Positions 12,001 through 59,589 of a stretch of 64,000 bases of DNA are shown one piece after another. Position 1 is the stretch's first letter; every line of letters starts with the position of its first letter. The notes beneath the pieces are model-generated. The model did not search any database, was not told the origin of the DNA, and saw nothing but the letters and a program-made list of their open reading frames with translations. The translations under genes were made by a program, and so were the position numbers. The stretch comes from Naegleria gruberi (taxonomy: Eukaryota), in the NCBI GenBank assembly GCA_000004985.1, contig GG738880.1; one strand, given 5' to 3'.

Positions 12001-12353
12001 NNNNNNNNNNNNNNNNNNNNNNNNNNNNNNNNNNNNNNNNNNNNNNNNNNNNNNNNNNNNNNNNNNNNNNNNNNNNNNNNNNNNNNNNNNNNNNNNNNNN
12101 NNNNNNNNNNNNNNNNNNNNNNNNNNNNNNNNNNNNNNNNNNNNNNNNNNNNNNNNNNNNNNNNNNNNNNNNNNNNNNNNNNNNNNNNNNNNNNNNNNNN
12201 NNNNNNNNNNNNNNNNNNNNNNNNNNNNNNNNNNNNNNNNNNNNNNNNNNNNNNNNNNNNNNNNNNNNNNNNNNNNNNNNNNNNNNNNNNNNNNNNNNNN
12301 NNNNNNNNNNNNNNNNNNNNNNNNNNNNNNNNNNNNNNNNNNNNNNNNNNNNN
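1..12353. other. Assembly gap (run of N); sequence unknown
   Basis: Bases 1-12353 are all 'n'. The first real base is at 12354 and lies inside a coding exon, so the adjacent gene is truncated by the gap. Confidence 0.99.
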
Positions 12354-25556: not shown

Positions 25557-28500
25557 TTATTTTGAAAACAATTTGGCCTGTGAGAGTAGTTCTGTACTTA
25601 ATTGAATGATATTGTTGCACTTTAATCCACAAGTTTCAAAATTGATAATGTCAGACGTATCTTGCTTTAAAGAGTTAGCTAAAAGAACCCATCCGCTCAA
25701 TCTCTTATAAAACAAGTCTACAACAGATTCATCCAAGCGTAGTATTGGAGTTGGGGCTTCTTTTGCTTGCTCTCCATCTTTTGGCTTAATATTCGTAAGA
25801 ATGGAGGCTGAGGATACTGTTTCCTCAGATGCTAATCTTCTTTTTGTGAGCTGTCTTTCTAATTTGAAATTTCGTTTCAAAAGCTCAAATAGATATCTGT
25901 CTGCTTTTAAGGTTTCATTGATATTGGAGGGTTTCTCATTTCTCATAGAATTGTCTTCCAAGAAAACTACTTTCTTTTTAGAGCTTGTTGGATAGTTCAA
26001 ATAACAACCTGTTTTGATTATTTTTCTAGATAGGCTCATCACTACTTGAATGTTAAACGGTGTAAGGAGAATATTCAAACATTTCTCAAATTCACTTTCG
26101 AATAATGAGAGCAAATTTAAATTGTGTAATAAATTTTGCAAATCTAAATCCAATCTGAAAGGAGAGCAATAATCTTTACGAGTGGCATGCACAAAAGCAC
26201 ATGCCATATTATCAAACAAAACTCTTCCTTTTTCCATATCAAATATAATAGAATCATCCCTAACATTGCCCAATCCAATAAACCAACTAATAGCAGACCA
26301 TTTAGCAAGGTCTCTAACAACCCTTTCACACATGTCGTACCAGGAATTTTTGTAAATGTGATATTTCGTTATTAAGACAGTGTTTTTCTTCTTGGTTTCC
26401 ACATCATAGGACATGAGTGAATAGTGTTGGGATGCGTGCTGAGAAAAATATTGGAATAATACAGTTTCTGGCTTTTTGAGAGAAAAATTGAGTGATTTCA
26501 AAGACTGTAAATCCACAAATGAAGAGTTTGATTGTTTTCTAATTACTTTGAAATAATTTCCTCCCATCTTCATAATTGGTATCATTTCCAACTGTTCCAT
26601 CCCAATAAAATTCCCAATTGCATTCGAGGTTAACATTTCCAAATTTGAGGCATCCATGGTTGGAATGGGAGAAAGTGTAATGGCGAGACTTTCTTTTGAG
26701 GTTTCCTGATCAAAATCTCTATCAATTTGAATTCGCATCTCCCACAAATTATTGTTATTTTCATATGAAAATTTGGAAATTTCGATCGAGTTAACAAATT
26801 GCATCCATTTAAAACCAGTATCCTTTGCTGTTGATTTTCCAATATATTTAAACAGTTCCAATAATGAATTAAAGAATTCTTCTTTGTTAACTGAGGATTC
26901 CAAATTATTATGTAGCACATTATTGATCACTGATAAGGAAGCTTGAATCATTTTAAATTTGTGGTCATCACAATATTCCATAAATTTTCTGAACATTTCC
27001 AAGTTGCAAAATCTAAGAAAGTCCAAAACAAAGTTAATATTTTCCAGAGATGAATACTTTTGAATCGATTTGTAAGAGTTCTTAAAGAGAAATAATGATA
27101 CTAATCGGTTCAATTCTTCTCCATTGAATGTCTCAATAATGAAGGAGAAAATTTTAGCCCATCCCGTACAGAATGTAACACTTTCAAGCATGTCTTTGTC
27201 AATAAATCTGTATTCTATAAGATATGACAGTATATTGATGCAATGTTTTAGCTCTGTTACTGTCATTGAATTCTTACAATCTATTAATTTTGAAATATTC
27301 TCCAAAAAATCAAATATTAATAAATGTACACAATAGAAAACCGATGGCTTTTGTGTTTCTAAATCTGGTTGATAAGTAAATGATCCAAAATTGGAAGGGC
27401 ATAGGTTAGTGCATGTTTGGGAGAGAATTTCTTCCATTGTGAAATTTCTATTTGAATACTTATTGTTGGAAACTACAGATGAGAATAGGATGATTACAGA
27501 TTCTAGTGTTATAGTTCTTAAACAAAAGGAAATATTTTCAGGTAGTTCTATTTTAGAAGAGAGTAGCGCATAACCTATTCTCCAATCTAGCATTCCATTG
27601 TCTTGTGAAATCTTCCTAAGACCAAAGGTATCCTCATTTTTGATTGGATTATCTGTATTGGTAATGAATTCAACAAACTCTTTCCAATCTACCTTTTTTG
27701 ATTTTCGTATTGTAGTCTTTGATTGAAGTAAGAGCTGCTTTCTGACAAAATCGAATACTTTTGTGGAATCTCTTTCAAGAGAAGCATAGCAATCAGATAA
27801 CATTGAACAAAAAAGATTCAAAAACTCTCCACATGTTTTGAGTTCGATTTTGTTCAATCTGAATTTCAAAGATTCATCCTTAATTGACCATTCATGTAGA
27901 ATGAAATTTAAATTAATGGATATATCTTCAATATTACTAGTTTGTTCACAAATGATTTGAATTCTTTCATGAATAACAGCATCACTCGAAGTATCATTAA
28001 ATATATAGAAAATACATTTCCAAAATAGAGAATTTTTCTTTCCATGTATAAATTTAGAATCAAATTCTTCACTTATTACTATTTGTATAGGTTCCTCTGT
28101 TGTTTGTTTGTTTGTTTCTAGATTCATTTCTTCAACTGTTTCTACAAGTGGCTCTGTATTTCTATCAATAAAATCTTGGGCTAAGTCTAATAAACTATGG
28201 CGATTCAAATACCATTCAGAAGAATCCACAGTATGAATTGAAGAGTCAGATTGTGAAAGTTTCATAATATGAAGAAGGATAAGATGTGACTCAACAACAG
28301 GCTCCTTATATCTACTTGTAATTGATTCTACTGTTTTAACATAATCAATGATGGTATTTGTAGACAAATTCTCAATAGAACTAAAAATGTTTCTACTAGA
28401 ATTATTGGATTCGGGGTTCATTCCCTGCAATATATCAAAGAAGGGAGTCTTTTGATCTCTCCTACTCAGTTCGTATTGAATCCATTGTAAACAGGTGGAA

Positions 28501-31500
28501 GAGATCTTATCTTTGAGTACCAACTCTATTACTTTGATTTTTTCTGTTGTTAAAAGCTTGTTCTCAGTAAGCATCTTCTTGATAATATTCTCATAGGTGG
28601 TGGTGTTAATTTGTCGAGCAAAGTTGGCCAAATCTGATACAGTGTTCATTTCTTTCGAGTTGAGGAATGAAACATCTCCTTTCTTTAGAGTTTCCACTAG
28701 TTGGTAGTTGATTTTTTGTTCAGAATTCATTGAGTCAGAGTACGACTTGAGGAATAACTCGAAATTCTTCTTTTTCTCATCCTCTCTTATAGATCTATCC
28801 AATAGATTCTTTGCAAACAAGTAGGGAATAACATCAGGATACTCATTGGAAATTTTCTGAATGAAACTATCATTGGAATTAGTTAAAGATATGTATGATC
28901 CCAATATTTCACAAATATTTTCCTTATACAACCCTTTCAAATAATTCAAATAGGGCCAAAGATTATTAAAACCCATCTTGAACTCCTCAATCAATGAGGA
29001 ATATTCAATATTTGCATTGGATCTATTAAACTTGTTTAGAGTAACTCTTAATTTGAATAAATCAAACTCTGATAGCAGCTGTCTGGTCTCAATCGATTTG
29101 GCTTGCATTTTGATAATACTCAAATCTAGTTTCGATAAATATGATTCAAGATTATCGTTTAGGCCTATAAGAAAAGCAATTTTACATAGAGGATATAGCG
29201 TGTCAATTCTTGCAAATCTTGTAGAACCCATATTATTAGAAATTATCAGTGCTTGCTTTTTCATATTATTGGTGAGTAAATAAATTATTATCCATTGCCA
29301 ACAAGAAGTTTGAAACTTGGGATCAATTTCTTTAAGTGCTTGTTGTGCCTTTTCATAGAATTGAGTTTGATAGTATTGACTAGAGGGTGATCGTAAACTG
29401 AACTTCAATTCAAATATGATTGTCTTTGGTTTTTTCATGTAATCAGCACTTATACTGTGAATTGGATTCAGTGTTGAGAAGTAGCTCTCATTTGAAATGT
29501 AAGATATGTTTGCCTTAAGAAAGTGAATTGAAGATTTGTAGTTTTCCAAATTGAATATTTGGGCATGTTCAATCATGTTTGTTTTAAGCCAGTCTGGAAT
29601 ATTCTCAACAATTTTCTCAAGCTTTTCAAGCTCAGTTCTTGATTTTTCTATATCAAAATGATTGACATAGTATTTGGTTCCTAGTTTTAGTTTTTTGAGT
29701 TGAAATTCAATTGTGATTGGATTGAAATCTCTGTATACACTCGAAAAATTAGAGTCATCCAAAATATAGAATGTCTTTAACCGTAGATAGACGTATTCGT
29801 AATTCTTTGGGCTAGATCTTTGTAGATTTGATAATATTTGAAGAGCTTGCCTTGAAGATATGGTACTCTTCTTTTTGTAAAGAATTTTGGCTTGCAATAA
29901 CTGAAACTCTGGCGAAAGTTCACTAATATTTGAAACCTTAGGTATGTATTGTGATGCATTATTATAATCTTCAATGTTGTAATGATAAAGTGCTTTTTCA
30001 AAATCCACAGCAGATAAATTTCCACTTCCTTTATATCAAAAATTAATTAATTCGATAGATGAACTACACTTACTTGTTGCTTCGACCAAGCTTGTTTCAA
30101 TATATTTCCTAAGTTTTGAATTTGTTTTCAATGCACATTTCCCCATTCTATTGTAAGCATAAACTTGCATATAGTACGAAGAGTCATCCCTTTTAGTGAC
30201 CTCATCAAAAATCCACTTTGAATAGTCTAATAATTTCCAAGGACTTCCAGCACTTGCCAATGATATATAGTACCAGAAAAAAGTTGAGGAATCTTTACCT
30301 CCTGGCTTTTTGCCAATCATTACATGTCTGTCATAGAATAACTGCATCAAGATGAGTGATGTTTTGGCACATCCAAGTTTTGTTAAGTAGAACCACAATA
30401 GACGTAATGTTTGTGGATATTGAGAGCAAATGCTTTGGATTGTATAGTTATTGTAAATATCTTGAGTAAAGATAATTGGATCAATATTGAAAGAAGTTAA
30501 CAAGTATGAAAGAGCTCCCTCTATATCACCATTATAGTACTTCAATAGAGAAACATTATTACAAGCAGATTTTTCAATTTCAACAGATCTAAAACCAAGT
30601 GGTAATTGATTAAATCCAAACTGAAGTTTGGTACTATTTAGAAATCGTTCAAAAATAGTCGAGTTTGCATTGAATTGATTGGAATCGTCCTGAGATAAAA
30701 GCGAATCCAATAAGTTTTTCTTATATTCCAAACTTGCTAAACAATCACTCCCTGAAAATAATTCCAAAGCTTTTGTAATTACATTTTGTGCCAACTCATA
30801 ATTCCCTGTTTCCCAATAAATATCCACAATATTTTCAATTGATATTATTTGATATGGTGCTAATTCTAATCCCTTCATAAAAAATTCAATAGATTGCTTA
30901 TATAAACATCTATCTTTAAAAATAATTCCAAATAAATGATAAATTGATGGATTATTTGGATCTCTCTGTTTCATTTCATCCAAAATATGTATTGCCTCTG
31001 AATCCCAGCCCATATTATGTTTGATTAGTGCCAATGTTAATAAATAGGCAGTGTTATTTGGTTCACACTTTTTTGCTTTATAGCAACATTGAATGGCCTC
31101 TTCGTATTCCTCATGAATCATGTAAATTTCAGATAATGCTATCCAAGCATCAAAACTCGAATCTGTTTGTTTAATTATATTCAAGAAATATCCCTCAGCC
31201 CTATCTATATCATTTAATATCCTCAAATATCTTATTCCATTGTTTTTTATATTGAATTTCTCAATAAAAATACTTACAAATATCCTAAATTCAATAGTGG
31301 ATTAATTATTAAATGTTCATTTCTAATTTGTTGACTTTTTTGAAGGGAATATGTAAATGATTCGATGGATTTTTCAATTTCACCTCTATGTAATTGTAAG
31401 ACTCCAATATTATTAGTTACAAGAATATCCTCTTTTAGTAGTTCCTTTTTTCTCCCTATTAATTCTTTTGATTTTGCAAAACTGTCAAACGAAGATTGTA

Positions 31501-45206: not shown

Positions 45207-47591
45207 TTATTTAAAGTATGAATATTTCACTTTCTGTTGTTCTGGTTGTGAATCATAGAATGGAAGAGATCTCTTCTTTGTTGAAGCTACATCCTCATCT
45301 TGATAATCTTCATACTCAACCACTACATCTTGATTTTGTTGTTGCTGTTGATACATGTATTGTTGTTGGGCATATTGTTGTTGAGCTTGAAGTTGAGCCT
45401 GTTGTTGAGCTGCATACATTTCTTCATCAGATTTAAGAGCAGAGTCTTTCAACATTCTACAAAATGATCTTAATCTTCTATACTTGTTAGTAATATATTC
45501 TATTAATAATTTCCAATCTTCATCCTTCTTTTCAAGAACAAAATATGATTTAGTTGATAAAATCAATTGAACAAATTTCTTATATCCATTAACTCCAGCG
45601 CTACTTTTGAGGGTAATTTGGAAAAGACCCTTCAGACTTGCGTGAATTTGTCTCATATAGGCGTGGAGATGAGGATCTAATTGTGCAATATATTCCATTA
45701 ATATCTTTCTTTGTTCTTGAAGTGCAGGATCTTCAGTTTCAATTTCATCCATCTGTCTCAATACAGTTGTAGTTGTATAAGAATAATAGTAAGAAGTTTC
45801 TTCCATTGGTGTAACTGGAGGTATCCATGATACATATCTCAAGAAAATCATTACAGCTTGTCTGTCTTGGATATTTTCGTTTCTCAAAATATAGGCATAA
45901 ATCTTACCCAAAAGAATATTTGCTTGTATGACTGTTTCCTTTTGGTTTTGGTGTGAAATGGCTGCATAAGACAATAAATGCAGCACGAGTTGCAGATATT
46001 CACTATCAAAATGAATATATTGATCTGTTTCTGCAAGAATGTCTTCAGTAAAGTGCCCAGATTCAGTAGGATCAGATGTTATGAAATTCAAATGATCTAT
46101 TCCTGTCACTCCAACAAGTTTGACGGCATAAGCAATAACTCCACCAATGTTGGCTGGAGTAACAACATCCAAAAGTGATCTAATTATTTCTACAGTTCTG
46201 TTCATGTTTGGATGTTTTTCCACTTCTTCCATTTGTTCCATGAATAATGAAAGAAGATTCACTAATTTTTTGGCTTCTGCATCCTTTCCTTCCTTGTCCT
46301 TGATTCTTGCCAAATGTTCAAAACATTTTCTCAAAAAGGCTTCTTCCTTTGGATTTTCTCCAAAAGCAGAAATGTCAGCACCCTCGTTTTTAATTCTGAG
46401 CTTCTTTTCTTCAAAGAGCTCCTCAAGTAATATTTCAACGAGTGGTCCTTCCTCTTTGGCATCTGTACAAAATTGTTTGACTTCATCAACTAAATCACTA
46501 TTTCTCAAGGAAAGGAGAACAACATTTTTAAGTACAAATATTAATCCAAAGCCAAGCTCTGAATTTTCTACCAGCAAATTGTAAACTTTCTCGTTCATAT
46601 CCAGCACAAACTCTTCTTCTATCGATTCTACTTTCTTATTTACAAGGTTAGTCACATATGATGGTACTCGAAGATAATTCACTAAATTGGATTTTTTCCA
46701 TACTACTTCCAACTCCTTTTCAAATTCAACAATTTTTTCATTAACTGTTGGTTGAGCATCTTCATCTCCATTGTCATCACCAACTGAAAAAGTGGAAGGT
46801 GCTGGCGTTACTATAGTGTTTGCATTATTTTTGAAATTTGTTTCTATTACACATTCCGTAATTTGAAGGAGGATTTTGGCCTTGAAATCTAAAAACTCCT
46901 TTTTAGTTTTCTTTTTGCTTTTCTTTTTAGCTTTAGGTTCTGTTTGTTGTAATAGATAACCTAAAATTTGTTTTATCAGTGTGGAATCCAGCTTTCCGTC
47001 CTTCATAATTTTAGGTTTAATAGAGGCATCATCCAAAAACTTCATAGTTTTAGATTTAATGGTTTGTGATGAGAGTTCATCAAAAACCCTCTTATTATCT
47101 CGCAAAGCAATTTCTTGTACACCAGACCAAAAAACTTTGCCTGTATATGTTTTCCTTGTTAAAACACTTTCCTTTTCGAACACTGTTACTGTTGGAACTA
47201 TATTTTCTATTGATGATGGTTGTGTTGTGTTTGGTGGTAAGTTGTGTTGTTCCTCTGGTTTTTGTTCAAACAAGAAGATGTCATCATTGTGGTCGTTTAC
47301 CTTTTCCAGCAAAAACAGGCCACTGGTATCATGTGATGAATTATTCACTAAATTTGAAGTATTATTACTAGCAAAAACATCCAAACTTTCACCCGATAAC
47401 ATAACCTCTTCTTTATCACTCTTTCCAAATAACAAGGAACCATTACTAGCTGCTATAGAAGAGGTATTCAACAACTCTGTTGGAGGTTGATGCTCCTCTA
47501 TCTTTATCAAAGAAGGATCAACACTCGGTGATGAAGTAAAATCATTCTCCAAACTAGTTGTATGTTGTTGTTGGTGTTCAGTATCGCTCAT
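45207..47591 (-). CDS. Hypothetical large helical-repeat protein (794 aa) with a Q-rich C-terminus
   Basis: Continuous ORF with good codon usage, a helical armadillo/HEAT-like composition and a C-terminal AQQQAQLQAQQQYAQQQYMYQQQQQNQ tract. No motif I can name. Its stop (45207..45209) is 1 nt from the PLPBP stop. The plus-strand ORFs 46147..46584 and 46981..47490 are antisense shadows. Confidence 0.5.
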   Translation of the reverse strand: MSDTEHQQQHTTSLENDFTSSPSVDPSLIKIEEHQPPTELLNTSSIAASNGSLLFGKSDKEEVMLSGESLDVFASNNTSNLVNNSSHDTSGLFLLEKVNDHNDDIFLFEQKPEEQHNLPPNTTQPSSIENIVPTVTVFEKESVLTRKTYTGKVFWSGVQEIALRDNKRVFDELSSQTIKSKTMKFLDDASIKPKIMKDGKLDSTLIKQILGYLLQQTEPKAKKKSKKKTKKEFLDFKAKILLQITECVIETNFKNNANTIVTPAPSTFSVGDDNGDEDAQPTVNEKIVEFEKELEVVWKKSNLVNYLRVPSYVTNLVNKKVESIEEEFVLDMNEKVYNLLVENSELGFGLIFVLKNVVLLSLRNSDLVDEVKQFCTDAKEEGPLVEILLEELFEEKKLRIKNEGADISAFGENPKEEAFLRKCFEHLARIKDKEGKDAEAKKLVNLLSLFMEQMEEVEKHPNMNRTVEIIRSLLDVVTPANIGGVIAYAVKLVGVTGIDHLNFITSDPTESGHFTEDILAETDQYIHFDSEYLQLVLHLLSYAAISHQNQKETVIQANILLGKIYAYILRNENIQDRQAVMIFLRYVSWIPPVTPMEETSYYYSYTTTTVLRQMDEIETEDPALQEQRKILMEYIAQLDPHLHAYMRQIHASLKGLFQITLKSSAGVNGYKKFVQLILSTKSYFVLEKKDEDWKLLIEYITNKYRRLRSFCRMLKDSALKSDEEMYAAQQQAQLQAQQQYAQQQYMYQQQQQNQDVVVEYEDYQDEDVASTKKRSLPFYDSQPEQQKVKYSYFK

Positions 47592-49628: not shown

Positions 49629-50096
49629 TTATTGAATATCAATTGATCTAGTCTTTTTCTTTGGTTCTTCAACTACTTTTGGAACAGTAACTCTCAAAAC
49701 ACCATGTTCCAAAGCTGCCTTGACCTTATCAAAATCAGCATTTGGTGGTAAATAGACAGTTCTACTGAAAGAACCATGTGATCTTTCAACGCAGTGATAT
49801 CTTTCATTATCTTCCTTCTTTTCCTTTTCAACATGACCACTGACAGTCATGGTTCTATGCTCTTCATCAATATCAATCTTTAAATCATCCTTTGTCATAC
49901 CAGGAACATTACAAACAATTTTAACTTCATTTGTAGTTTCAGAAACATCAGTGGTTGGTTTAAATTCAGGAACTAATCTATCATCAAATCTATCAAATGC
50001 TCTCAAGAATGGATCATCAAAGAAAGTATCAACCCAATTATTGGTTCTGTGTTGTCTGGCCAATTGCTTATTATTGTGATGATTGTTGGAGCTCAT
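49629..50096 (-). CDS. Small heat-shock protein (alpha-crystallin / Hsp20 domain)
   Basis: Start taken at the Met at 50096 (MSSNNHHNNKQLARQHRTNNWVDTFFDDPF...). The alpha-crystallin domain reads PTTDVSETTNEVKIVCNVPGMTKDDLKIDIDEEHRTMTVSGHVEKEKKEDNERYHCVERSHGSFSRTVYLPPNADFDKVKAALEHGVLRVTVPKV. The ORF-track upstream extension to 50282 reads as low-complexity leader, and its start is uncertain. Confidence 0.85.
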   Translation of the reverse strand: MSSNNHHNNKQLARQHRTNNWVDTFFDDPFLRAFDRFDDRLVPEFKPTTDVSETTNEVKIVCNVPGMTKDDLKIDIDEEHRTMTVSGHVEKEKKEDNERYHCVERSHGSFSRTVYLPPNADFDKVKAALEHGVLRVTVPKVVEEPKKKTRSIDIQ

Positions 50097-50852: not shown

Positions 50853-53800
50853 TTATTGTTTGAGAGCAGAGCCCATTTGTTCTTTCAATTCGAATAATTT
50901 GTTCATTTGTTGATAACTGGATGTAATGAAGAAACGAGAGAAAGTATCATCCAAGTTAACCATCAAAGCACAATACATATCCTTTAAAGTCTCTTTCAAA
51001 TCATCGCTTTCAATCTTGCCACTTTTAATCAATTCGAATTGAGAATTGAATGATTTCTTGATGTGATGAGAAAAATTGATTTCCATTGGAGAATTAGTTG
51101 CCACAAAATTTTCATTCCATTCAGTAAATTCTTTTTCCAGATCTTCCATTGATGGAATATTTCCCCTATTAATTTCCTCAAGAATAGGATAAAGTTTCTT
51201 CCAAAATATTACATTTTCTAATGAATGTTCTGTCTTGGCAAATTGTTCAAAAACTTGACAAAGTATTGGTTGAATAAGAATATCCTTGATTTGATTATCC
51301 TCTTCCACATCTTCATTTCCAATCTGTGAAGTATAACCCTTTTTAGAAGCCAAGTATTCATAAATGGAAATAATTGAAACTAATCCACCAAAACTTAAAA
51401 TCAAAAGTAAATTATAAATCACTTCAAAAATATAGCCAACAATTAAATAGCTCTCTCTTGCATTGAGTGAAGTCTGTGAGGTGAGATAGGAGAAACCCAT
51501 TGCATTGGAAATTACATAGAACGCAATACTAATGAAAAATAAGGCAAATTCCTTTCTGAAGGAAAGATTGTCATTCACAATAAAGTAATTCTTGATTGGG
51601 TTAATGAAGAGTTTCTTATCTGTTTCTTTCAATTTGGAATTCAATTGAACATATCTCAATTCCATATAAATATCCACTGCATAGATAACACAAACAAGTA
51701 ATGAAATGGTCATTACAAATGCAAATAATGAGCTTGACATAATTTTTGTGTAGGTGTCTCCATCAATTGCACTCCTTCCCATCAGTGAAATGAAGATAAC
51801 AAAATAAATAATAATGAATAGAGCAATAACAGCATTCCACACAATAGAGAAAAACTTGTTGGTGAGAATGATCTTGGTCCACTTTAAAAAGGTATCAGTT
51901 TGAGTTTCTTTCTTTTCACTCAAAATGGCCATCAATTCATAAACATATTTGAATGTAATATATCTCAAATTGAACATTAAATAGTTCAATAATGAGAGGC
52001 AATAGAAAGTGCAACTAATCATTGTAAAAACGGATTGGACTATTGAGCTATCTCCACTTCTATCCAATAACATTGAACCAGGAATAATCACGCTAAAAAG
52101 CAGTTCAATAATAAGAGATACCAGGGCAAAGTAAGGAAGATACCATCTGCTCTTTGTTGGATTCCTTCGTGAGGTTATAATTAATCCAACAATTGCAACA
52201 ATAGCCAATACAATCAAAATTGAGCTGACAACAATTTTTCCAATGGTGAGAGGTATGCTACTGTATTTGGTAAATTGAAGGAATGCAGAGAATGTAGTGG
52301 TATGATTACATTGACAGTCAATAATACCATTAGATTGGTCAACCAGAGTTTTACATCCATCTGTTTTCCATAATCTTTCAGTTTCATCGAAATACTTGCA
52401 AGAAATAGTTAGTTGTGTGGAATTGGATTGGATGCTTTCTATGGTGCTCTTATCTACATTAAATTTAATGCTGATAGGGTTAGAGAGATTCGAAACGTTG
52501 AGAACTTGACCATTGGAAATATACTTGAGATCAGTAACCTTGGCCAAATTGACAAATGACGTTCCTGCTAATCCAATTAAATTATTGTAGGAATAGTTAT
52601 TACTCAATACAGATCCAGATATTAAGGAGGCCAACTTTTCAACATTTAAATAGGTAACACTTCCAATAGAAATATCTTTTAAAGTACTTAGCTCACTAGG
52701 AGTTACTACTGTGGTATTTCCATCAGAAACAATTGATTGATTGATATTTCTGGCAACTGACACTATAAAAGAAGCTGTAACCACTTGGAAAATACTATCT
52801 GATTGGGATGAAATTCTAGTGGCCACCATTACCGTTTTCTCAATAATTGAATTACTTTCTGAGCTAATATTGAAATTTTGAGACGAGTAGCAGTTAGAAT
52901 ATGCCATTAATACATTTGACAATGTTGATTCGTATGAAGCACTTGAGGTCTTTAAGGTATTCGAATCCAGTTGACTAAGTTCCTTGGAAATATTAACAGC
53001 TAAATTAGAGATGGTGTTCAGAATAGTCGAACTAACTTGAGATTGGGATGTAATGACAGACAATGCTTCTGTAACTTTGAGAGTTTCATCAGCATTGGAT
53101 GCATTTCTTTGTAAAGTTGAAATAGCGTTAGTGACAAGTTCCAAAACTTGAACAACATTAGTTGACTTGGAATAGGTATCCTTATTAGATGCAATGGTAG
53201 CAACATCACTAATTGGTAAAGTTTTGAGGAAACTTTCAGAAAAAACACTTTCGTATTCCATTACTTGTAAAGTATTGGAAAAGTCAACTGTGAATGATTC
53301 AGTTCCTAACGTGGCTGTTATAGAACATGAATAATTTCCCTTCTTCATGAACTTATCAATTGAAATAATCAATGGATTGGTGAATGATTGGATGTTCAAA
53401 GGTGTATTGAAATATGTGGTCAATTGATTTTTGCATTTCATTTCATAAGTAGCTGATTGGTAAACTGATTTGAATGATTCCGCATAGTTCAGTACTACTT
53501 TAACACTTGTATTAGTGTAAGTGACAGTTGAATAAAACTTTACATCAAATACAGGAGTCAGGCAATCTTTTCCATACCATCCACTTGTACAACCTGAAAT
53601 TACATACTTTCTAATAGTTGAATCTGCAACAATTATAGATCCATCATTAGTAATAGAAAGTGAGTTTGGCTGGAAGAGTATTATTTCATTCTTTCCTGGT
53701 GTTCCAATTATTGTTGAGATAGTATTCGATGATCTATACCATCTTCTAATACATTGATTGGATTTTTCTAAAATAGCCATATCTCCATTAGAAAAGAATG

Positions 53801-55630
53801 CAAAGTGATTTAATCTCATTGAATAAGTTTCTGGTGTTAGATCTGTTTCATTAGAATAAGTAATACAATCAGATTTTCCAAATAAGGTAATAAGTGATTT
53901 GTTTTGCATAATCTTGTACATATTACACAAAACTGAATCATAAAATACAATATTACCATCAATGGGATCTACTGACAAACGGTTAACAGATTTTCCAAAC
54001 AATGTATCGTTACCAACAAACACATCAAGAATTCCATTACTGTCAACTGTAAAAATTGACCCAACACTGCCAATAAATATCTTTGAATCATTCATCATAA
54101 CTGATCCTATTTTGATTGATGAATTAGAAGCCAAGCCCCCATATTGAACTTCATTATGAGCGTGGTATCCTCCAATTATTGTTGTCATTACTCCACTCAC
54201 ATCAATTTTCATCACTGCTGTAGTGTTGGCAAAGTACAGATTATCAGAGTTTTCAAACAATGAAATTGAAGTACCAACAGGTGAATTAATGGCAAGAGTT
54301 TCACCTACAACATAGGAAATGCCAAACGAATCTGTTCTTCCATTACCAGCAATAATAGTAGAAATACCATTCGTATATTTGTGAATGAATGGAACAGCAG
54401 CTTGGTAGGCATATCTCAACTCTCCACTCTGCTTATCCACAATAAATTGTGAAACAGTATTCAAATTGGTATTGTTTGCCAGAGTTGGCTCATTATTTCT
54501 CACAAAATATTTGGTTGAGCATTCTCCTGCAATAACAGCATTTGAAGTTCTATTGTAAATAAATCTTGTTCTTTCTGAAACAATTACATTACCAAATGAA
54601 TCAATCAAATAGGCATATGGTGAATTAATTCCTGTATTATTCAATACAGCTTGTTGAGCAGTATTAATTTCATAAGCTAAAATTGGTTGACCATTAGCAC
54701 TCGACATGTAGAGAGTTTCTCCAAATTTAACTAGTTTAGTTGGATAGAGTGTTGGATCATACACTACAGTTTGCATTTGTCTTGTATTCAAATCGATAGC
54801 TGTAAGTTTTCCAACAATTGCTTCGACCACAAATAATGTATATCCATCTAAAACCAATCCTTGAGGATTTCCAAGTGAAACTTTAGCAGCCCCAACCGTA
54901 TTAATATTACCATCACCTGCTACAGTGGTTATGTTACGATAAATCATATCATACATTCTCACTTTGTTATTGCTTGTATCTGAAATATACATGTATCGTC
55001 CAGTTTCGGATATAGCAAGGCCCATTACACCATTAAATTGAATTGTTTCCATTGGATTATTATCACCACCGTAACCAGAACTACCACAAACTCCAACAAA
55101 ATCCTCAATAATATTCGTCATCAAATTTACCCTTCTAACGCAACTGTTACCAGCATCTAATATGTTTCGAATAAAAACAAAATAAACATTCATGACATAC
55201 CTGCAATATAAACATATCCTCCAAACTCAACAATATCCAAAGGGTTTGCAAGTATGGCCAAAGTAGCCAAAACACCATTTCCATAATATCCATAGGCATA
55301 ACTTCCAGCAAATTGTGAAATTTTTCCATCACTTGAAATTCGTCTAATAACATCATGTCCAGAATCGACAATATAAATCGTATTATTTGAGCCCATTTTC
55401 ACAACCTCTATCGTATCCAAACATGCCATTTTAGCATCCAATCCATCGCCATACTTGTTGAGTGAATTCAATGACATGCCACCAGCAAGTAAAGTGGAAG
55501 TTGTTGAATATTTGAAGGAACCTGAAGGATTGGACTTGGCAGTTGTTGTTATCGAAAGGAGGAGTAACAACAGTGCATGTAGTAGTACAGCCACTGACAG
55601 CAGTGAGATCAATGACGTGGGATTTGGCAT
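50853..55630 (-). CDS. Adhesion-GPCR-like receptor: signal peptide, NHL beta-propeller repeats, GAIN/GPS motif, 7TM and a C-terminal RGS domain (1577 aa)
   Basis: Exon 1 (55201..55630) encodes MPNPTSLISLLSVAVLLHALLLLLLSITTTA, a signal peptide, plus the first NHL blade (IYIVDSGHDVIRRISSDG...FAG...GGYVYIA). Intron 55157..55200 (44 nt, GTATGT..ATTAG, phase 1). Exon 2 (50853..55156) continues DAGNSCVRRVNL..., holds many more NHL-like blades (YISDTSNNKVRMYD, ...) and then a GPS motif, ERLWKTDGCKTLVDQSNGIIDCQCNHTTTFSAF (W..C..C.C.H.T.FA). Seven hydrophobic helices follow (IVVSSILIVLAIVAIVGLIITS ... YLIVGYIFEVIYNLLLILSFGGLVSIISIY). It ends in an RGS box: LCQVFEQFAKTEHSLENVIFWKKL...IEKEFTEWNENFVATNSPMEINFS...LKDMYCALMVNLDDTFSRFFITS, compare RGS4 AFKAFLKSEYSEENIDFW...IYNEFISVQATKEVNLD...IFNLMEKDSYRRFLKS. 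Confidence 0.8.
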
Positions 55631-55962: not shown

Positions 55963-56313
55963 TTACATTTCAATATGCACCTTGTAAAGTGATGGGAAGT
56001 TTTGATGTGGAATTTGAGCCATCTTTTTAACACAATCACTGATATTTCTCATTTCAGTCATAGCCTTTTGGAATTTCTCTGGAGATTCCCAATGAGCATA
56101 ATTAATATATTGATATTGAGATTTTTCCATATCAAGTGCCTTATGAAGAGAGGTGTGAATGTAACCATCTTGTTTCTTCAAGAATTGAGCACATTCAACC
56201 CAAGCCAATTCAAATTCCTTTTCATCTTTGCTGTCAATATGGAATGGATTCATTAAGATGACATGTTTAGTTTTCATGGATTTCAATGGACAGTTTGGAT
56301 TGTTGAAGAACAT
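55963..56313 (-). CDS. Small ABM/Dabb-like (antibiotic-biosynthesis-monooxygenase fold) protein; tentative
   Basis: 116-aa ORF, ...VILMNPFHIDSKDEKEFELAWVECAQFLKKQDGYIHTSLHKALDMEKSQYQYINYAHWESPEKFQKAMTEMRN.... The pattern fits the ferredoxin-like ABM/stress-responsive dimeric alpha+beta barrel (a beta-strand, helix with E/F, then HxxL...WxSxExxxA). No catalytic assignment is possible. Confidence 0.4.
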   Translation of the reverse strand: MFFNNPNCPLKSMKTKHVILMNPFHIDSKDEKEFELAWVECAQFLKKQDGYIHTSLHKALDMEKSQYQYINYAHWESPEKFQKAMTEMRNISDCVKKMAQIPHQNFPSLYKVHIEM

Positions 56314-56532: not shown

Positions 56533-58062
56533 TTATTCTTCTCTAATATCCTCTAATTTCTCTAATAACTTGTCAACTGTGAGCTTTTTGTAATTTTCGA
56601 ATATGTCTTTGAAAAATAGAATCAACTCTTTGGAGAGAATTCTCTGGGTTTCTAAGAGTGCTATCTTTTCAGAGAGGCTTTTCTTGGCAGGAATCTCTCC
56701 TGTGGAAACATAGAACATAGTGGCTGCGTATGAATACAAATCCTCTACTTTTGAATGATTTCCTGTTCCAGAGCTATAATCATGCTTTCCTCTAAACGAA
56801 ACAGATTCAACAGTATTTTCAATAACTCTGCCAAAATCTCCCAAAGCTATTGAAATTTCTTCATTTTGTAATTTTTTGATAAACACATTGCATGGTGAAA
56901 TGTCACAATGAATTTTTTCCTTATCATGTAGGTCCTTCATTCCTTTGAGTAATTGCTTTGAAATCTCCAATATCATCTTGTTGGAAAACTTTTTTCGTTC
57001 TAATAATGTTCCGTGTTCAAAATATTCCATGAAATAATACACCTTATTATCCTTAACAAAAATCTTATTGAAATGAATCAAGTAATTGCTGTTGATATTT
57101 GCAATTTTGACTTCCTCTAATGCCTCCCTCACTGTAGCAGTGTGTAATACTCGCACTACTACATTCTCTTTTCCAGTATTCACTTTATAAATTAGAGCAT
57201 CTCCACCTTTTCCCAATTGCACTATATCGCTCTCTCCACATACTAGCAAATCCATAATCACTTTTCTTGGTTCTGTATACATTTTCAGATGAACTACTCG
57301 ATCCTTCTTATTAAGAGGAGCCAATTTTCTAATCATTACTTGAATGTCATTATCATCATTGACAATTATTGAACTATTGTTGAATTCATATTTACATATA
57401 AAATCTATTGTTGACTCTAAAGCTAATTTACTTCTGCATGCTTGTGTGAATGTAGCAAAAGATTCAAGATTTTCCTTTGTAAAACTTGTGTCTACCTTTC
57501 CATCATAATTTGTTTTCAAATTCAAAATTAGTGGGAATTTTTGTTTCGTATCAAGTTTTCTGAACTCACGAGGAACAAAACTAAATTCTGAAATCATCAC
57601 TTTCACATCGTCATCATCACTGACAACTTCCAAACTTGAATTATCTTTTCCCTTCAAAAGAAAACAATCCTCCTCAATTCCAATTAATTCAATCAGTTTC
57701 AAATAACTAATTTCCGTTGATATCCTAATCCACCTGTCCCTAAACAAAATTTCCATACCATTTGGTGATCCGACACTCGCAGTAGAACTATTCGATAGAG
57801 AGGTTGAATATTCTTCATCATTCAAAACTCTAGATATTGATGTTTTACTAGAATTACTACTTCGTATCGTTACACTCGTTGGAGAGCAAGAGAGTGGTGA
57901 TAGACCACCCCCTTCCGATTTTAAATCTAAAATATTCTCATCATCAGCACCTGGGTTGGAAATAATCGTCACCTCTGATGTTGGTAATTTTGAGGTTGTT
58001 TTGAAGAATTTGTTGAGCCACATTTTTTTAAAGTTTCTTTTCGTATTTGAAAGATAAGTCAT
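56533..58062 (-). CDS. PB1–PB1–protein-kinase-like protein (MEKK-like architecture) with an atypical catalytic motif set; probable pseudokinase
   Basis: 509 aa. There are two PB1-like modules (...RWIRISTEISYLKLIELIGIEEDCFLLKGKDNSSLEVVSDDDDVKVMISEF...; ...IDFICKYEFNNSSIIVNDDNDIQVMIRKL...KDRVVHLKMY). The kinase fold has QLGKGGDALIYKV (Gly loop), VVVRVLH (beta-3 Lys replaced by Arg), HCDISPCNVF (in place of HRDLKPxN), DFG retained, and no clear APE. Confidence 0.65.
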   Translation of the reverse strand: MTYLSNTKRNFKKMWLNKFFKTTSKLPTSEVTIISNPGADDENILDLKSEGGGLSPLSCSPTSVTIRSSNSSKTSISRVLNDEEYSTSLSNSSTASVGSPNGMEILFRDRWIRISTEISYLKLIELIGIEEDCFLLKGKDNSSLEVVSDDDDVKVMISEFSFVPREFRKLDTKQKFPLILNLKTNYDGKVDTSFTKENLESFATFTQACRSKLALESTIDFICKYEFNNSSIIVNDDNDIQVMIRKLAPLNKKDRVVHLKMYTEPRKVIMDLLVCGESDIVQLGKGGDALIYKVNTGKENVVVRVLHTATVREALEEVKIANINSNYLIHFNKIFVKDNKVYYFMEYFEHGTLLERKKFSNKMILEISKQLLKGMKDLHDKEKIHCDISPCNVFIKKLQNEEISIALGDFGRVIENTVESVSFRGKHDYSSGTGNHSKVEDLYSYAATMFYVSTGEIPAKKSLSEKIALLETQRILSKELILFFKDIFENYKKLTVDKLLEKLEDIREE

Positions 58063-58158: not shown

Positions 58159-59589
58159 ATGAAACATTTTAAATCTTGTTTTTCATCATCATTCAAGACA
58201 CTCTCACAACATCAAAGTAATAATAATAATAATGTAGTGGTACTATTAAATAATAGCCAAGGCTTCATCAAGAGAAATATCTATCAGAGACCACAGCCTA
58301 AATTGTATGTTTTTTTAAAAATCATCATCGGAATGAATAATCGGAATGAATAATATTTAATAATATATTTGAAATATAAATTGATGATAATATAGAACAC
58401 TTTTTGATAGAAATCAAGTTAGAAAACATAAAGAATACTCACTTAAATGTACAGATGGAAAGGAAGGAGAATATGATTATGTAAAGGCTATTATTGCCAA
58501 TAGTATTGTGGATAGATTGAGTGTAGGTTTGTTAAATATTATTATTGTGGATTTATCATGTGGTGGATTTAAAGTATTTCTCGAAATCATTAAAGAGTGT
58601 TTGTGAAATTGGATGTGGAAAGGGATTTTTAATTGATAGACTATTGAATAAGACAATTATTGATTTTTTACCACCTGACGAACGTAAAACTGCTTTAGAA
58701 CAAGCAAAGAAAAACAAATCATCAATTGGAGAAACCGAACTTAATTATCCAGTATTGCATTTCCAAGGAATTGAAAATTATACACTTTGTGACCAAAGTC
58801 AATTGCATTTGGATGCTATTCAAATACCGAGTGATTTAGGATTAATTAAAGGAAATACTATCAAGAATATTACTAAAGTGCATTTGGATGAGGATGGTGC
58901 ATCACTGCCGTTTGAGGATAATTCATTGGATTGTGTAGTTGCTGGATTCTATTTGCATTGGGTAAATGATTTACCAGGATTTTTAAAGGAAGTGGAAAGA
59001 GTATTGAAACCTGACGGTGCATTTGTTGGAGCATTACTTGGAGGAAATACTTTATCAGAGTTGAGAACAAGTTTCGTCCTTTCTGAACAGGAAAGAGAAG
59101 GAGGTGTTTCTCCACACGTCTCCCCACTCAGTTCCATTGAGGATGCAGGAAATGTCTTGACAAGAGCAGGTTTTAAATTACCAACAATCGATGCCGAAAC
59201 AATCAAAGTATACTATCCTGATCCATTCACTTTAATGCACCACTTACAAGGAATGGGAGAAAATAATGCCTTATTCAAGAGAAGAACTGTTATTTCCAGA
59301 CAAACATTAATAGGAGCTGCAGCCATTTATGATCACATGTTTAGAGAAAATGATAGAGGAGTGCCAGCAACCTTTGAGGTTATTCACATGATTGGATGGA
59401 AGCATGACGAAAGTCAACCAAAGTAAGTTATTTCCTAAATATTTTGAATTCTAATTATTGTAAAAAAGACCCGCTAAAAGAGGTTCAGGAACTCTATCAA
59501 TGAAAGATTTTGCTAAAGAAATAGGTACACAATTACATGTCGCTGTTGATGATGAATCAAATCCAGGTAGTTCTTGTAGCACAAAATAA
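58159..59589 (+). CDS. Complex I assembly factor NDUFAF5 (SAM-dependent methyltransferase fold), a 4-exon model
   Basis: Exons 58159..58304, 58396..58522, 58575..59422 and 59469..59589. Introns: 58305..58395 (GTATGT..ATATAG), 58523..58574 (GTAGGT..TAAAG) and 59423..59468 (GTAAGT..AAAAG). The spliced protein reads ...QRPQPKL|TLFDRNQVRKHKEYSLKCTDGKEGEYDYVKAIIANSIVDRLS|YFSKSLKSVCEIGCGKGFLIDRLL...CVVAGFYLHWVNDLPGFLKEVERVLKPDGAFVGALLGGNTLSELRTSFVLSEQEREGGVSPHVSPL...ATFEVIHMIGWKHDESQPK|PAKRGSGTLSMKDFAKEIG.... It is collinear with human NDUFAF5, including the N-terminal IFDRDLKRKQK...DYLKEEVGSRIADRVYDI and the C-terminal PAERGSATVSFGELGK. Confidence 0.85.

What the first reader, a model, noticed from the sequence alone, without database searches (positions are those of the whole stretch)
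50853..55630. Single receptor combining NHL propeller, GAIN/GPS, 7TM and an intracellular RGS domain
The spliced 1577-aa product has a cleavable signal peptide, about 700 aa of NHL-type beta-propeller blades, and a recognisable GPS autoproteolysis motif (W..DGC..........C.C.HTTTFSAF) right before the first of seven TM helices. Its cytoplasmic tail ends in a bona fide RGS box (conserved F..F...E.S.EN..FW, then helices alpha5-alpha7). GAIN-7TM is the hallmark of adhesion GPCRs. RGS domains normally act in trans as GAPs for G-alpha. The 7TM+RGS fusions I know of (plant RGS1, fungal GprK-type) lack a GAIN or adhesion ectodomain. A receptor that carries its own G-alpha GAP behind a GPS-cleavable, NHL ligand-binding ectodomain would be a self-terminating or ligand-relieved-brake signalling unit. 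I do not know of a described family with this exact architecture.
Basis: partly seen in the sequence, partly recalled or inferred. Interest (0 to 1): 0.85.

Follow-up and report, generated by a model that had tools for sequence, protein, structure and literature searches.

The report
Naegleria NHL–GAIN–7TM–RGS receptor
This Naegleria gruberi gene really does encode one membrane receptor with an NHL propeller ectodomain, a self-cleaving-type GAIN/GPS domain, seven membrane helices and a built-in G-protein "off-switch" (RGS) domain, but the GPS–7TM–RGS design was already described in 2022 for the sister species N. fowleri, so this is a new member of a known family.

Summary
Observation confirmed. 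On the minus strand, exon 1 (55630..55201), a 44-nt GT..AG intron (55200..55157) and exon 2 (55156..50853) give a 1577-aa protein. It is identical to the NCBI model "RGS-domain-containing protein [Naegleria gruberi]".

All four modules were verified:
- NHL propeller region: Pfam above cut-off; teneurin-like NHL in PDB at E 1e-29.
- A cytoplasmic RGS box: Pfam 30.2 bits; TM-score 0.72-0.79 to RGS8/1/16; Gα-contact residues invariant across paralogues.

The 7TM and RGS lie in one uninterrupted exon.

The claim of novelty does not hold. Bosch et al. 2022 (PMC9283941) described 28 "7TM RGS" proteins in N. fowleri. A number of them have GPS motifs and adhesion-type ectodomains, and GAP activity was shown for three isolated RGS boxes. 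I found at least 69 distinct representatives with GPS+7TM+RGS. Every named one is from Naegleria or Willaertia.

Two things appear new here: the NHL-ectodomain subgroup, and a family-wide tethered-peptide motif (H-T|T-x-F-x-x-F-[ILV]).

The 7TM is not a detectable 7tm_2 member. I read the protein as a receptor-GAP. The direction of its regulation is unknown.

The parts
55201..55630 (-). Coding exon 1 (residues 1-143 plus the first base of codon 144): start codon, signal peptide and the first two NHL blades.
   Evidence: ORF and sequence. The spliced translation is identical to annotated protein P0001.
55157..55200 (-). 44-nt GT..AG intron.
   Evidence: Sequence read. Unspliced, the frame hits TGA at 55190-55192. 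Splicing restores the frame and an NHL blade core. The alignment to paralogue P0121 runs across the junction. No transcript data were available.
50853..55156 (-). Coding exon 2 (residues 144-1577 plus the stop codon): the rest of the NHL region, GAIN, 7TM and RGS in one open frame.
55538..55630 (-). Predicted signal peptide (residues 1-31, MPNPTSLISLLSVAVLLHALLLLLLSITTTA).
   Evidence: Hydropathy peak of 2.82 at residues 3-33. Coordinates checked by translation. The cleavage position is inferred, not computed with a dedicated predictor.
53592..55423 (-). NHL-type beta-propeller region (residues about 70-665, spanning the intron). It has about 11-12 blade-like repeats, consistent with two six-bladed propellers.
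   Evidence: Pfam TEN_NHL and NHL above cut-off. phmmer against PDB gives teneurin-like protein NHL at 1.3e-29, plus SOQ1, NHLRC2 and PknD, and TRIM2 NHL for residues about 590-655. Blade cores were found by regex and by eye. The number of propellers was not verified structurally.
53562..53591 (-). Short EGF-like cysteine knot remnant, CTSGWYGKDC (residues 666-675).
   Evidence: Sequence only. Relatives carry EGF_2 or teneurin-type EGF domains at the equivalent place. There is no Pfam hit in this protein itself.
53250..53558 (-). Spacer of about 100 aa between the EGF-like knot and the GAIN domain (residues 677-779). It is probably beta-rich.
   Evidence: Sequence only. It was not modelled and has no Pfam hit. 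It is conserved in paralogue P0121.
52272..53213 (-). GAIN domain (residues about 792-1105): a helical subdomain A followed by a beta-sandwich subdomain B.
52287..52403 (-). GPS motif (residues 1062-1100) with four cysteines: C1063, C1078, C1091 and C1093.
   Evidence: Pfam GPS at 32.9 bits. These residues, with W1073, G1077, H1095, T1096, T1097 and F1099, are invariant in 31 full-length relatives. The family profile hits adhesion GPCRs in PDB, best ADGRF1 at 4.3e-9.
52296..52301 (-). Putative autoproteolysis site T1096|T1097 (H-T|T; metazoan consensus H-L|T/S).
   Evidence: Position by alignment to ADGRF1 'CTHLTSF'. The residue before the cleavage point (P1) is Thr in 88 of 109 family members, and the first residue after it is Thr in 104 of 109. 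Cleavage itself is untested.
52272..52298 (-). Tethered-peptide (Stachel-like) segment TTFSAFLQF (residues 1097-1105), the last beta-strand of the GAIN model.
   Evidence: Strand 319-326 of the model. Family logo: position 1 T 104/109, position 3 F 104/109, position 6 F 82/109, position 7 I/L/V 85/109. This parallels the adhesion-GPCR consensus TxFAVLM (PMC9046087).
51336..52265 (-). Seven-transmembrane domain (residues 1108-1417) with a GPCR fold.
50907..51287 (-). Cytoplasmic RGS box (residues 1434-1560).
   Evidence: Pfam RGS at 30.2 bits. phmmer alignment to GAIP and RGS18. Foldseek to RGS8, RGS1 and RGS16, including Gα complexes, with target-normalised TM-score 0.72-0.79. E1453, E1457, N1458, N1504, N1544, T1548 and R1551 are invariant in the family.

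Best explanation
The locus encodes a Naegleria gruberi member of the heterolobosean '7TM RGS' receptor family, in its GAIN/GPS-bearing form and with an NHL-propeller ectodomain.

Shown here:
- One polypeptide has a signal peptide, about 600 aa of NHL blades, an EGF-like knot, a GAIN domain with a canonical four-cysteine GPS, a GPCR-fold 7TM and a C-terminal RGS box. By topology the RGS box is cytoplasmic.
- The RGS box keeps the residues that, in RGS4-type proteins, contact the Gα switch regions. The RGS4 equivalents are E83, S85, E87, N88, N128, D163 and R167 (numbering from my own knowledge). Here they are E1453, S1455, E1457, N1458, N1504, D1547 and R1551.

Inferred mechanism:
- The 7TM holds the RGS box at the membrane, where it accelerates GTP hydrolysis on one or more of the many Naegleria Gα subunits. 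Some of these exchange nucleotide spontaneously in N. fowleri.
- The ectodomain is the sensor. After GAIN autoproteolysis at H1095-T1096|T1097, the NHL-bearing N-terminal fragment stays non-covalently bound.
- Ligand binding or pulling force exposes the conserved TTFSAFL peptide, which docks into the 7TM bundle.
- The resulting conformational change alters access of the RGS box to Gα, or triggers removal of the receptor from the membrane as in plant AtRGS1. Either way it changes the lifetime of Gα-GTP.

Whether the stimulus strengthens or relieves the GAP 'brake' cannot be told from sequence.
For: - Gene model and identity with the annotated N. gruberi protein.
- Domain HMMs above curated cut-offs.
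- NHL homology to solved NHL propellers.
- AlphaFold model of residues 780-1577 with a 39-sequence alignment, mean pLDDT 82.7.
- GAIN, GPCR-fold and RGS structural matches.
- The family profile hits only adhesion GPCRs in PDB through GPS, tethered peptide and TM1.
- Gα-contact residues of the RGS box are invariant across 31 relatives, and the alignment to GAIP and RGS18 places them correctly.
- Family size and architecture: 250 representatives at E<=1e-3, of which 69 of the 144 hits re-matched locally have GPS+7TM+RGS.
- The same NHL-GPS-7TM-RGS order occurs in an N. gruberi paralogue, N. fowleri and Willaertia magna.
- The tethered-peptide logo is conserved.
- Experimental precedent in the sister species: isolated RGS boxes of Nf 7TM RGS2/3/4 are GAPs for Nf Gα2/3/5/7, bind the transition-state form, and are blocked by the switch-1 G-to-S mutation (PMC9283941).
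Against: - Nothing about this particular protein has been tested. There are no data here on expression, cleavage, localisation or GAP activity.
- The cleavage site has Thr rather than Leu before the scissile bond. I do not know whether H-T|T is cleaved.
- The 7TM cannot be assigned to any GPCR class, so docking of the tethered peptide into it is an analogy.
- The RGS Pfam score is modest (30.2 bits), and phmmer E-values to solved RGS proteins are only about 0.01.
- A GEF role of the 7TM is not excluded.
- The linker between TM7 and the RGS box is poorly modelled (pLDDT <50 at model residues 639-648), so the geometry of RGS relative to the 7TM is unknown.
Confidence: 0.75

Rival explanations
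1. It is a true G-protein-activating receptor, working like an adhesion GPCR. The exposed tethered peptide turns the 7TM into a GEF for a slow-exchanging Gα. The fused RGS box then terminates that same signal quickly. This is the 'self-terminating unit' of the first reader.
For: - The 7TM has a GPCR fold.
- The tethered-agonist-like motif is under strong constraint.
- Invariant residues sit in cytoplasmic loops: S1146, R1147 and P1151 after TM1; R1208 and Y1216 after TM3; L1341, F1343 and R1344 before TM6. These could form a G-protein interface.
- Bosch et al. found both fast- and slow-exchanging Gα subunits in N. fowleri but only one conventional GPCR candidate, and both Gα types engage 7TM RGS proteins.
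Against: - There is no detectable 7tm_2 or other GPCR-family sequence signature.
- The only 7TM-RGS protein studied in depth, AtRGS1, is described as a GAP, not a GEF (abstracts of PMC3386157 and PMC3718340).
- No GEF activity has been reported for any Naegleria 7TM RGS protein.
Confidence: 0.2
2. The GAIN domain is not cleaved and serves only as a rigid stalk. The receptor signals by ligand-induced clustering or endocytosis, without any tethered-agonist step.
For: - The residue before the cleavage point is Thr, not the metazoan Leu.
- Cleavage is dispensable for activity in some adhesion GPCRs, such as ADGRF1 H565A/T567A (PMC9046087).
- AtRGS1 is a 7TM-RGS protein whose endocytosis accompanies signalling (abstracts of PMC6695760 and PMC6747245).
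Against: - H1095, T1097, F1099 and the hydrophobic sixth and seventh positions of the tethered peptide are nearly invariant across more than 100 divergent paralogues. That is hard to explain for a purely structural strand.
- The vertebrate ADGRG7 sequences retrieved here also carry H-T-T, so this variant is not unique to the family.
Confidence: 0.25
3. The RGS-like domain is a non-catalytic scaffold, as in GRK or axin RGS-homology domains. It anchors Gα or other partners without accelerating GTP hydrolysis.
For: - Some RGS domains have lost GAP activity (de Mendoza et al. 2014, PMC3971589).
- The Pfam score is modest.
Against: - The Gα-contact residues, including the Asn equivalent to RGS4 N128 (N1504), are invariant in the family.
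- The best structural matches are RGS8, RGS1, RGS16 and RGS2, including Gα-bound complexes. To my knowledge these are catalytic R4-type RGS proteins.
- Three related N. fowleri RGS boxes are active GAPs.
Confidence: 0.05
4. It is a gene-model artefact in which two neighbouring genes, an NHL/GAIN surface protein and a 7TM-RGS protein, have been fused by prediction.
For: No transcript evidence was available to me. The only intron is predicted.
Against: - Residues 144-1577, from the second NHL blade through the RGS box, are a single open frame with no stop.
- The GPS motif abuts TM1, as in all GAIN-containing receptors.
- The same full-length order recurs in a 39%-identical paralogue and in N. 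fowleri and Willaertia.
Confidence: 0.02

Closest known systems
Naegleria fowleri '7TM RGS' proteins, e.g. Nf 7TM RGS1-4 (Bosch et al. 2022, J Biol Chem, PMC9283941)
   Same: They share seven TM helices with a C-terminal RGS box. A number have a GPS motif before TM1 and large adhesion-type ectodomains. They come from the same family of organisms (Naegleriidae). An N. fowleri relative, P0124 (FDP41_008291), matches the C-terminal 672 aa at E 1.9e-89 and also carries NHL and GPS. GAP activity has been shown for three of their RGS boxes.
   Different: The paper describes EGF-like and lectin ectodomains and never mentions NHL (0 occurrences). It describes only the GPS motif and never names the GAIN domain (0 occurrences). 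The present protein is from N. gruberi and is itself untested.
Metazoan adhesion GPCRs (class B2), e.g. ADGRF1, ADGRE5/CD97, ADGRG6, ADGRG7
   Different: There is no 7tm_2 signature. In a by-eye reading of alignment A3 I saw no counterpart of the invariant W-G-x-P stretch of the vertebrate ADGRG7 alignment A4, which I take from memory to be the class-B TM4 GWGxP motif. Profile homology ends after TM1. The residue before the cleavage point is Thr instead of Leu. A cytoplasmic RGS box is fused in cis, which to my knowledge no metazoan adhesion GPCR has.
Plant AtRGS1-type 7TM-RGS proteins
   Same: Both have seven TM helices followed by a cytoplasmic RGS box in one polypeptide. AtRGS1 is the best-studied receptor-GAP that regulates a self-activating Gα (abstracts of PMC3386157 and PMC3718340). 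It is the functional model for this family.
   Different: Sequence relatedness of the two 7TM domains could not be tested with these tools.
GPR158/GPR179 with RGS7-Gβ5 (class C orphan receptors that recruit an RGS protein in trans)
   Different: There the RGS protein is a separate subunit bound non-covalently. Here it is fused. The structural match is at the level of the general GPCR fold only.
Polycystin-1 / PKD1-like proteins
   Same: They have a GAIN/GPS domain directly before the first TM helix, and REJ domains occur in some relatives of this family (3 of 31). GAIN is shared by adhesion GPCRs and PKD proteins (PMC3321182).
   Different: Polycystin-1 has 11 TM helices (PMC9672506 abstract) and, to my knowledge, a PLAT domain. 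This protein has exactly 7 TM helices, no PLAT hit and an RGS tail.

Membership tests
Naegleria-type 7TM RGS receptor family (Bosch et al. 2022) | Seven transmembrane helices. | tested here: met
   Seven hydrophobic segments between residues 1108 and 1413. Seven long helices in the AlphaFold model.
Naegleria-type 7TM RGS receptor family (Bosch et al. 2022) | RGS box C-terminal to TM7 on the same polypeptide. | tested here: met
   Pfam RGS at 30.2 bits against a cut-off of 23.9, residues 1434-1560. It lies in the same exon as the 7TM. Foldseek to RGS8, RGS1 and RGS16 gives target-normalised TM-score 0.72-0.79.
Naegleria-type 7TM RGS receptor family (Bosch et al. 2022) | Sequence homology of the 7TM-RGS core to N. 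fowleri members. | tested here: met
   P0124 (N. fowleri FDP41_008291) at E 1.9e-89. P0123 (N. lovaniensis) at E 1.3e-105. A member of the P0195 cluster is N. fowleri FDP41_013758. I could not map these to the paper's Nf 7TM RGS1-4 identifiers.
Naegleria-type 7TM RGS receptor family (Bosch et al. 2022) | GAP activity of the RGS box on a cognate Gα. | not testable with these tools
   Only the conservation of contact residues could be checked. Activity is shown for three N. fowleri relatives.
Adhesion GPCR (class B2) | GAIN domain containing the GPS motif immediately N-terminal to TM1. | tested here: met
Adhesion GPCR (class B2) | Autoproteolysis at the H-L|T/S consensus. | tested here: inconclusive
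   His and the nucleophilic Thr are present and invariant, but the residue before the cleavage point is Thr (H-T|T). Cleavage cannot be tested in silico.
Adhesion GPCR (class B2) | 7TM domain belonging to the secretin/adhesion family (Pfam 7tm_2, PF00002). | tested here: not met
Adhesion GPCR (class B2) | Tethered agonist of consensus TxFAVLM. | tested here: met
   This protein has TTFSAFL. In the family logo, positions 1 (T), 3 (F), 6 (F) and 7 (I/L/V) are conserved. The consensus is from PMC9046087. Agonist function is untested.
Plant AtRGS1-type 7TM-RGS | 7TM followed by a C-terminal RGS box. | tested here: met
Plant AtRGS1-type 7TM-RGS | Sequence homology of the 7TM to AtRGS1. | not tested
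Plant AtRGS1-type 7TM-RGS | Minimal extracellular N-terminus with no ectodomain. | tested here: not met
   This protein has an ectodomain of about 1100 aa. Minimal relatives do exist in N. gruberi, for example P0200 (523 aa), whose match starts at TM1.
Polycystin-1-like (GAIN + 11TM) | Eleven TM helices with a PLAT domain after TM1. | tested here: not met
   Exactly seven TM segments and no PLAT hit.
NHL-repeat beta-propeller | Repeated NHL blades detectable by profile. | tested here: met
   Pfam NHL at 25.6 bits (cut-off 20) and TEN_NHL at 28.3 (cut-off 27.1). Teneurin-like NHL in PDB at 1.3e-29, plus SOQ1, NHLRC2, PknD and TRIM2.

The most novel reading that the evidence does not exclude
In this Discoba lineage, the GAIN/tethered-peptide switch known from adhesion GPCRs may be coupled to a different 7TM scaffold, not 7tm_2, whose output is a fused GAP rather than a GEF, or a GAP in addition to a GEF. 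Force or ligand on the NHL ectodomain would then act by changing how fast Gα-GTP is destroyed. If so, the GAIN-Stachel-7TM mechanism is older than, and separable from, the adhesion-GPCR class. It would be either a feature of the last eukaryotic common ancestor or a transferable module. Naegleria would then offer a natural system in which tethered agonism controls a brake.
Probability: 0.3. Interest if true: 0.7.

Novelty: new member of a known kind. Interest (0 to 1): 0.4.

Why it matters
The finding is real but not a new class. It adds an NHL-propeller subgroup, conserved in N. gruberi, N. fowleri and Willaertia, to the published Naegleria GPS-7TM-RGS receptors.

It also supplies three things the 2022 paper did not give:
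- A confident model showing a complete GAIN fold.
- Evidence that the 7TM has a GPCR fold but is not a recognisable class-B member.
- A family-wide, strongly conserved tethered-peptide motif (H-T|T-x-F-x-x-F-[ILV]).

This makes one open question directly testable: can an adhesion-GPCR-style tethered agonist regulate a receptor-linked GAP? The family is also of practical interest, because N. fowleri is a lethal pathogen and these are its most numerous candidate surface receptors for G-protein signalling.

Tried and rejected
- The search for homologous proteins with the C-terminal 672 aa returned nothing, not even the protein itself. I attribute this to saturation of the word index. With the alignment A3 it returned only 10 hits. 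The exhaustive HMMER search was used instead.
- Single-sequence AlphaFold gave pLDDT 40 and was discarded.
- Aligning 65 full-length relatives failed internally. A 39-sequence set worked.
- The AFDB Foldseek library was not installed, so AtRGS1 and other predicted 7TM-RGS structures could not be compared.
- The look-up of encoding contigs had no record for the protein.
- The N. gruberi genome paper (Cell 2010) is not held.
- tblastn of the protein against the window found no paralogue nearby.
- I considered a polycystin-like reading (GAIN + 11TM) and rejected it, because the protein has exactly seven TM helices and no PLAT domain.
- I considered a fused-gene artefact and rejected it, because the frame is open from the NHL blades to the RGS box and the architecture is conserved.
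- I considered filing it as an adhesion GPCR and rejected membership, because the 7tm_2 criterion is not met.


Full report
**Observation**

The gene is on the minus strand. ORF listing shows a 146-aa ORF (55190..55630) and a 1446-aa ORF (50853..55193) in different frames. The sequence between them contains a 44-nt intron with GT at 55200 and AG at 55157.

Joining 55630..55201 to 55156..50853 gives a 4734-nt CDS. It encodes 1577 aa with only the terminal stop. The junction recreates 'YIADAGNSCVRRV', a typical NHL blade core. Unspliced, the frame ends after 146 aa.

The spliced protein is 100% identical over its full length to P0001, named by NCBI/UniRef 'RGS-domain-containing protein [Naegleria gruberi]'. 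The organism is Naegleria gruberi (Discoba, Heterolobosea, Naegleriidae). No transcript data were available to me.

**Domains by sequence**

Pfam finds four families, all above their curated cut-offs:

| Family | Residues | Bits | Cut-off |
|---|---|---|---|
| GPS | 1062-1100 | 32.9 | 22.5 |
| RGS | 1434-1560 | 30.2 | 23.9 |
| TEN_NHL | best stretch 434-499 | 28.3 | 27.1 |
| NHL | best stretch 639-656 | 25.6 | 20 |

- The ectodomain matches solved NHL propellers: teneurin-like protein at 1.3e-29, then SOQ1, NHLRC2 and PknD, and TRIM2 for the distal part.
- Regex and inspection give about 11-12 blade cores, consistent with two six-bladed propellers. I could not verify the number of propellers structurally.
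- Hydropathy shows an N-terminal signal-like segment and exactly seven hydrophobic segments between residues 1108 and 1413. There are 23 N-glycosylation sequons in residues 1-1100. This topology puts the RGS box in the cytoplasm.
- TM7 and the RGS box are in one uninterrupted exon.

**Family**

An exhaustive HMMER search with residues 906-1577 found 250 representatives (clusters at 50% identity) at E<=1e-3, and 47 at E<=1e-30.

I re-matched the 149 listed hits other than the query's own protein against residues 780-1577; 144 matched. Of these, 69 cover GPS+7TM+RGS. Another 20 cover 7TM+RGS without GPS. One of those is P0200, a 523-aa N. gruberi protein whose match begins at TM1.

All 17 representatives for which a source gave an organism name are from Naegleria gruberi, N. 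fowleri, N. lovaniensis or Willaertia magna, all Naegleriidae. The rest are unnamed metagenomic sequences.

Pfam on 31 full-length members gave RGS in 28 and GPS in 25. Ectodomains vary: EGF in 10, NHL in 7, RCC1-like propellers in 5, REJ in 3, and an ephrin-receptor-like domain in one. None had a 7TM family hit.

The NHL-GPS-7TM-RGS order recurs in several relatives:
- N. gruberi paralogue P0121, 39% identical end to end, with the alignment running through the exon junction.
- Willaertia P0127 and an environmental sequence, P0122.
- N. fowleri P0124, where Pfam finds NHL and GPS and the RGS end is supported by the HMMER match to query residues 333-670 and by the EFSLENVIFW motif.

**Structure**

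A single-sequence AlphaFold run was useless (pLDDT 40). With a 39-sequence alignment (A2), the model of residues 780-1577 has mean pLDDT 82.7 and pTM 0.58. In order, it shows:
- a helical subdomain;
- a beta-sandwich whose last strand is FSAFLQFT;
- seven long helices;
- a poorly modelled linker;
- a helical bundle.

Foldseek against PDB (TM-scores normalised to target length):
- The top hit is inactive CD97 (GAIN+7TM) at E 5e-9.
- Next are the GAIN domains of BAI2, BAI3 and latrophilin-1.
- Class A GPCRs (MT1, GPR34, CB1) match the 7TM with TM-score 0.60-0.67.
- RGS8, RGS1 and RGS16, including Gα complexes, match the tail with TM-score 0.72-0.79.

The 7TM is therefore a genuine GPCR fold, but its class is unresolved.

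**Is the 7TM an adhesion-GPCR 7TM?**

A profile of GPS+7TM from 24 members (A3) hits only adhesion GPCRs in PDB at E<=0.001, with ADGRF1 best at 4.3e-9. The alignments cover GPS, the tethered peptide and TM1, reaching the start of TM2.

hhalign against an alignment of mostly vertebrate ADGRG7-like sequences (A4) gives 98.3% probability and E 2.4e-14. Again only columns 4-101 align. No member matches 7tm_2 or any other 7TM Pfam family even at E<=10.

A4 has an invariant W-G-x-P stretch, which I take from memory to be the class-B TM4 GWGxP motif. On a by-eye reading of A3 I saw no counterpart in this family.

The GAIN/GPS module is thus homologous to that of adhesion GPCRs. Membership of the 7TM in class B2 is a tested criterion that is not met. 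The 7TM-RGS core also exists without GAIN, so I describe the protein as a 7TM-RGS receptor that carries a GAIN-containing ectodomain.

**Functional residues**

Across 31 full-length relatives:
- In the GPS, the invariant residues are C1063, W1073, G1077, C1078, C1091, C1093, H1095, T1096, T1097 and F1099.
- In or next to cytoplasmic loops, the invariant residues are S1146, R1147, P1151, R1208, Y1216, D1305, L1341, F1343 and R1344.
- In the RGS box, E1453, E1457, N1458, N1504, N1544, T1548 and R1551 are invariant. S1455 and D1547 are at least 90% conserved.

The phmmer alignment to GAIP and RGS18 places EHSLEN on E(Y/F)SEEN and SPMEINFS on SPKEV(S/N)LD. Assigning these to RGS4 E83/S85/E87/N88 and N128 rests on my own knowledge of RGS4 numbering.

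In 109 family members with a C-x-C-x-H motif, the positions around the cleavage point are:

| Position | Commonest residue | Count |
|---|---|---|
| Residue before cleavage | T | 88/109 |
| Peptide position 1 | T | 104/109 |
| Peptide position 3 | F | 104/109 |
| Peptide position 6 | F | 82/109 |
| Peptide position 7 | I/L/V | 85/109 |

This parallels the adhesion-GPCR tethered agonist TxFAVLM. There, positions 3 (F), 6 (L) and 7 (M) insert into the 7TM pocket (PMC9046087).

**Prior art**

Bosch et al. 2022 (PMC9283941) reported 28 7TM RGS proteins in N. fowleri. [quoted passage not shown]

They also showed that the RGS boxes of Nf 7TM RGS2, 3 and 4 accelerate GTP hydrolysis on Nf Gα2, 3, 5 and 7. 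These boxes bind the AlF4 transition-state form, and the switch-1 G-to-S mutation blocks them. They left open whether extracellular cues alter GAP activity.

De Mendoza et al. 2014 (PMC3971589) noted that many bikonts have 7TM-RGS architectures and that N. gruberi has a lineage-specific expansion of Gα subunits. Araç et al. 2012 (PMC3321182) showed that GAIN domains exist in Dictyostelium and Tetrahymena.

Neither 'NHL' nor 'GAIN' occurs in the Bosch paper. The GPS-7TM-RGS architecture is therefore published. The NHL subgroup, the full GAIN fold, the non-7tm_2 nature of the 7TM and the conserved H-T|T-x-F-x-x-F motif are additions made here.

**Mechanism**

- Best-supported reading (confidence 0.75 for identity and GAP role): a receptor-GAP. 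The membrane-anchored RGS box deactivates Gα. The NHL/GAIN ectodomain senses a ligand or force. Exposure of the tethered peptide changes the 7TM and thereby the reach or residence of the RGS box. The sign of the regulation is unknown. AtRGS1 offers the precedent of stimulus-induced endocytosis relieving the brake.
- Main rival (0.2): the 7TM is also a GEF, and the RGS box makes the unit self-terminating.
- Non-exclusive alternative (0.25): the GAIN domain is uncleaved and purely structural.
- Minor rivals: a non-catalytic RGS scaffold (0.05) and a gene-fusion artefact (0.02).

**Verdict**

This is a new member (NHL subgroup) of a known kind. Interest is moderate. The protein is a good handle for asking whether tethered agonism can control a GAP, but the family and its biochemistry are already in the literature.

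Noticed in passing
window 1..12353: The first 12,353 bases of the window are a run of N, either an assembly gap or padding. Composition there reads as 0.
   Followed up: partly
window 49632..50090 (-): A small heat-shock protein gene (Pfam HSP20, E 1.2e-24) lies about 760 bp downstream of the receptor's stop codon, on the same strand.
   Followed up: partly
window 55966..56313 (-), 56536..58062 (-), 58545..59423 (+): Upstream neighbours are an ABM (antibiotic biosynthesis monooxygenase-like) protein, a 509-aa protein kinase with a long non-kinase N-terminus, and a class I methyltransferase. Nothing links them functionally to the receptor.
   Followed up: partly
window 25557..30008 (-) and 45207..47591 (-): Two long ORFs (1483 aa and 794 aa) have no Pfam match at E<=1e-3. 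They are large uncharacterised Naegleria proteins.
   Followed up: no
related proteins P0216, P0221, P0240 (metagenomic, 740-810 aa): These are distant relatives in which the 7TM-RGS core is preceded by about 300-400 aa. JGI labels two of them (P0221, P0240) and a cluster-mate of P0216 'pimeloyl-ACP methyl ester carboxylesterase', an alpha/beta-hydrolase label. That would be a different ectodomain or N-terminal module on the same core.
   Followed up: no
related protein P0200 (N. gruberi XP_002680023, 523 aa): This is a minimal 7TM-RGS paralogue with only about 18 residues before TM1. The GAIN-bearing and bare forms therefore share one 7TM-RGS core within the same genome.
   Followed up: partly
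alignment A4 (ADGRG7-like proteins P0286-P0292; the named ones are vertebrate): These adhesion GPCRs also have H-T-T rather than H-L-T at the GPS (invariant N331, H332, T333, T334, F336). This is why they were the best non-family hits. Whether H-T|T sites are cleaved was not looked up.
   Followed up: no
cluster of P0124 (N. fowleri FDP41_008291/008292; CAG4707918.1): The N. fowleri relative is annotated as two adjacent genes (1782 aa and 480 aa) in one assembly and as a single 2233-aa product in another. This suggests inconsistent gene models for this family.
   Followed up: no
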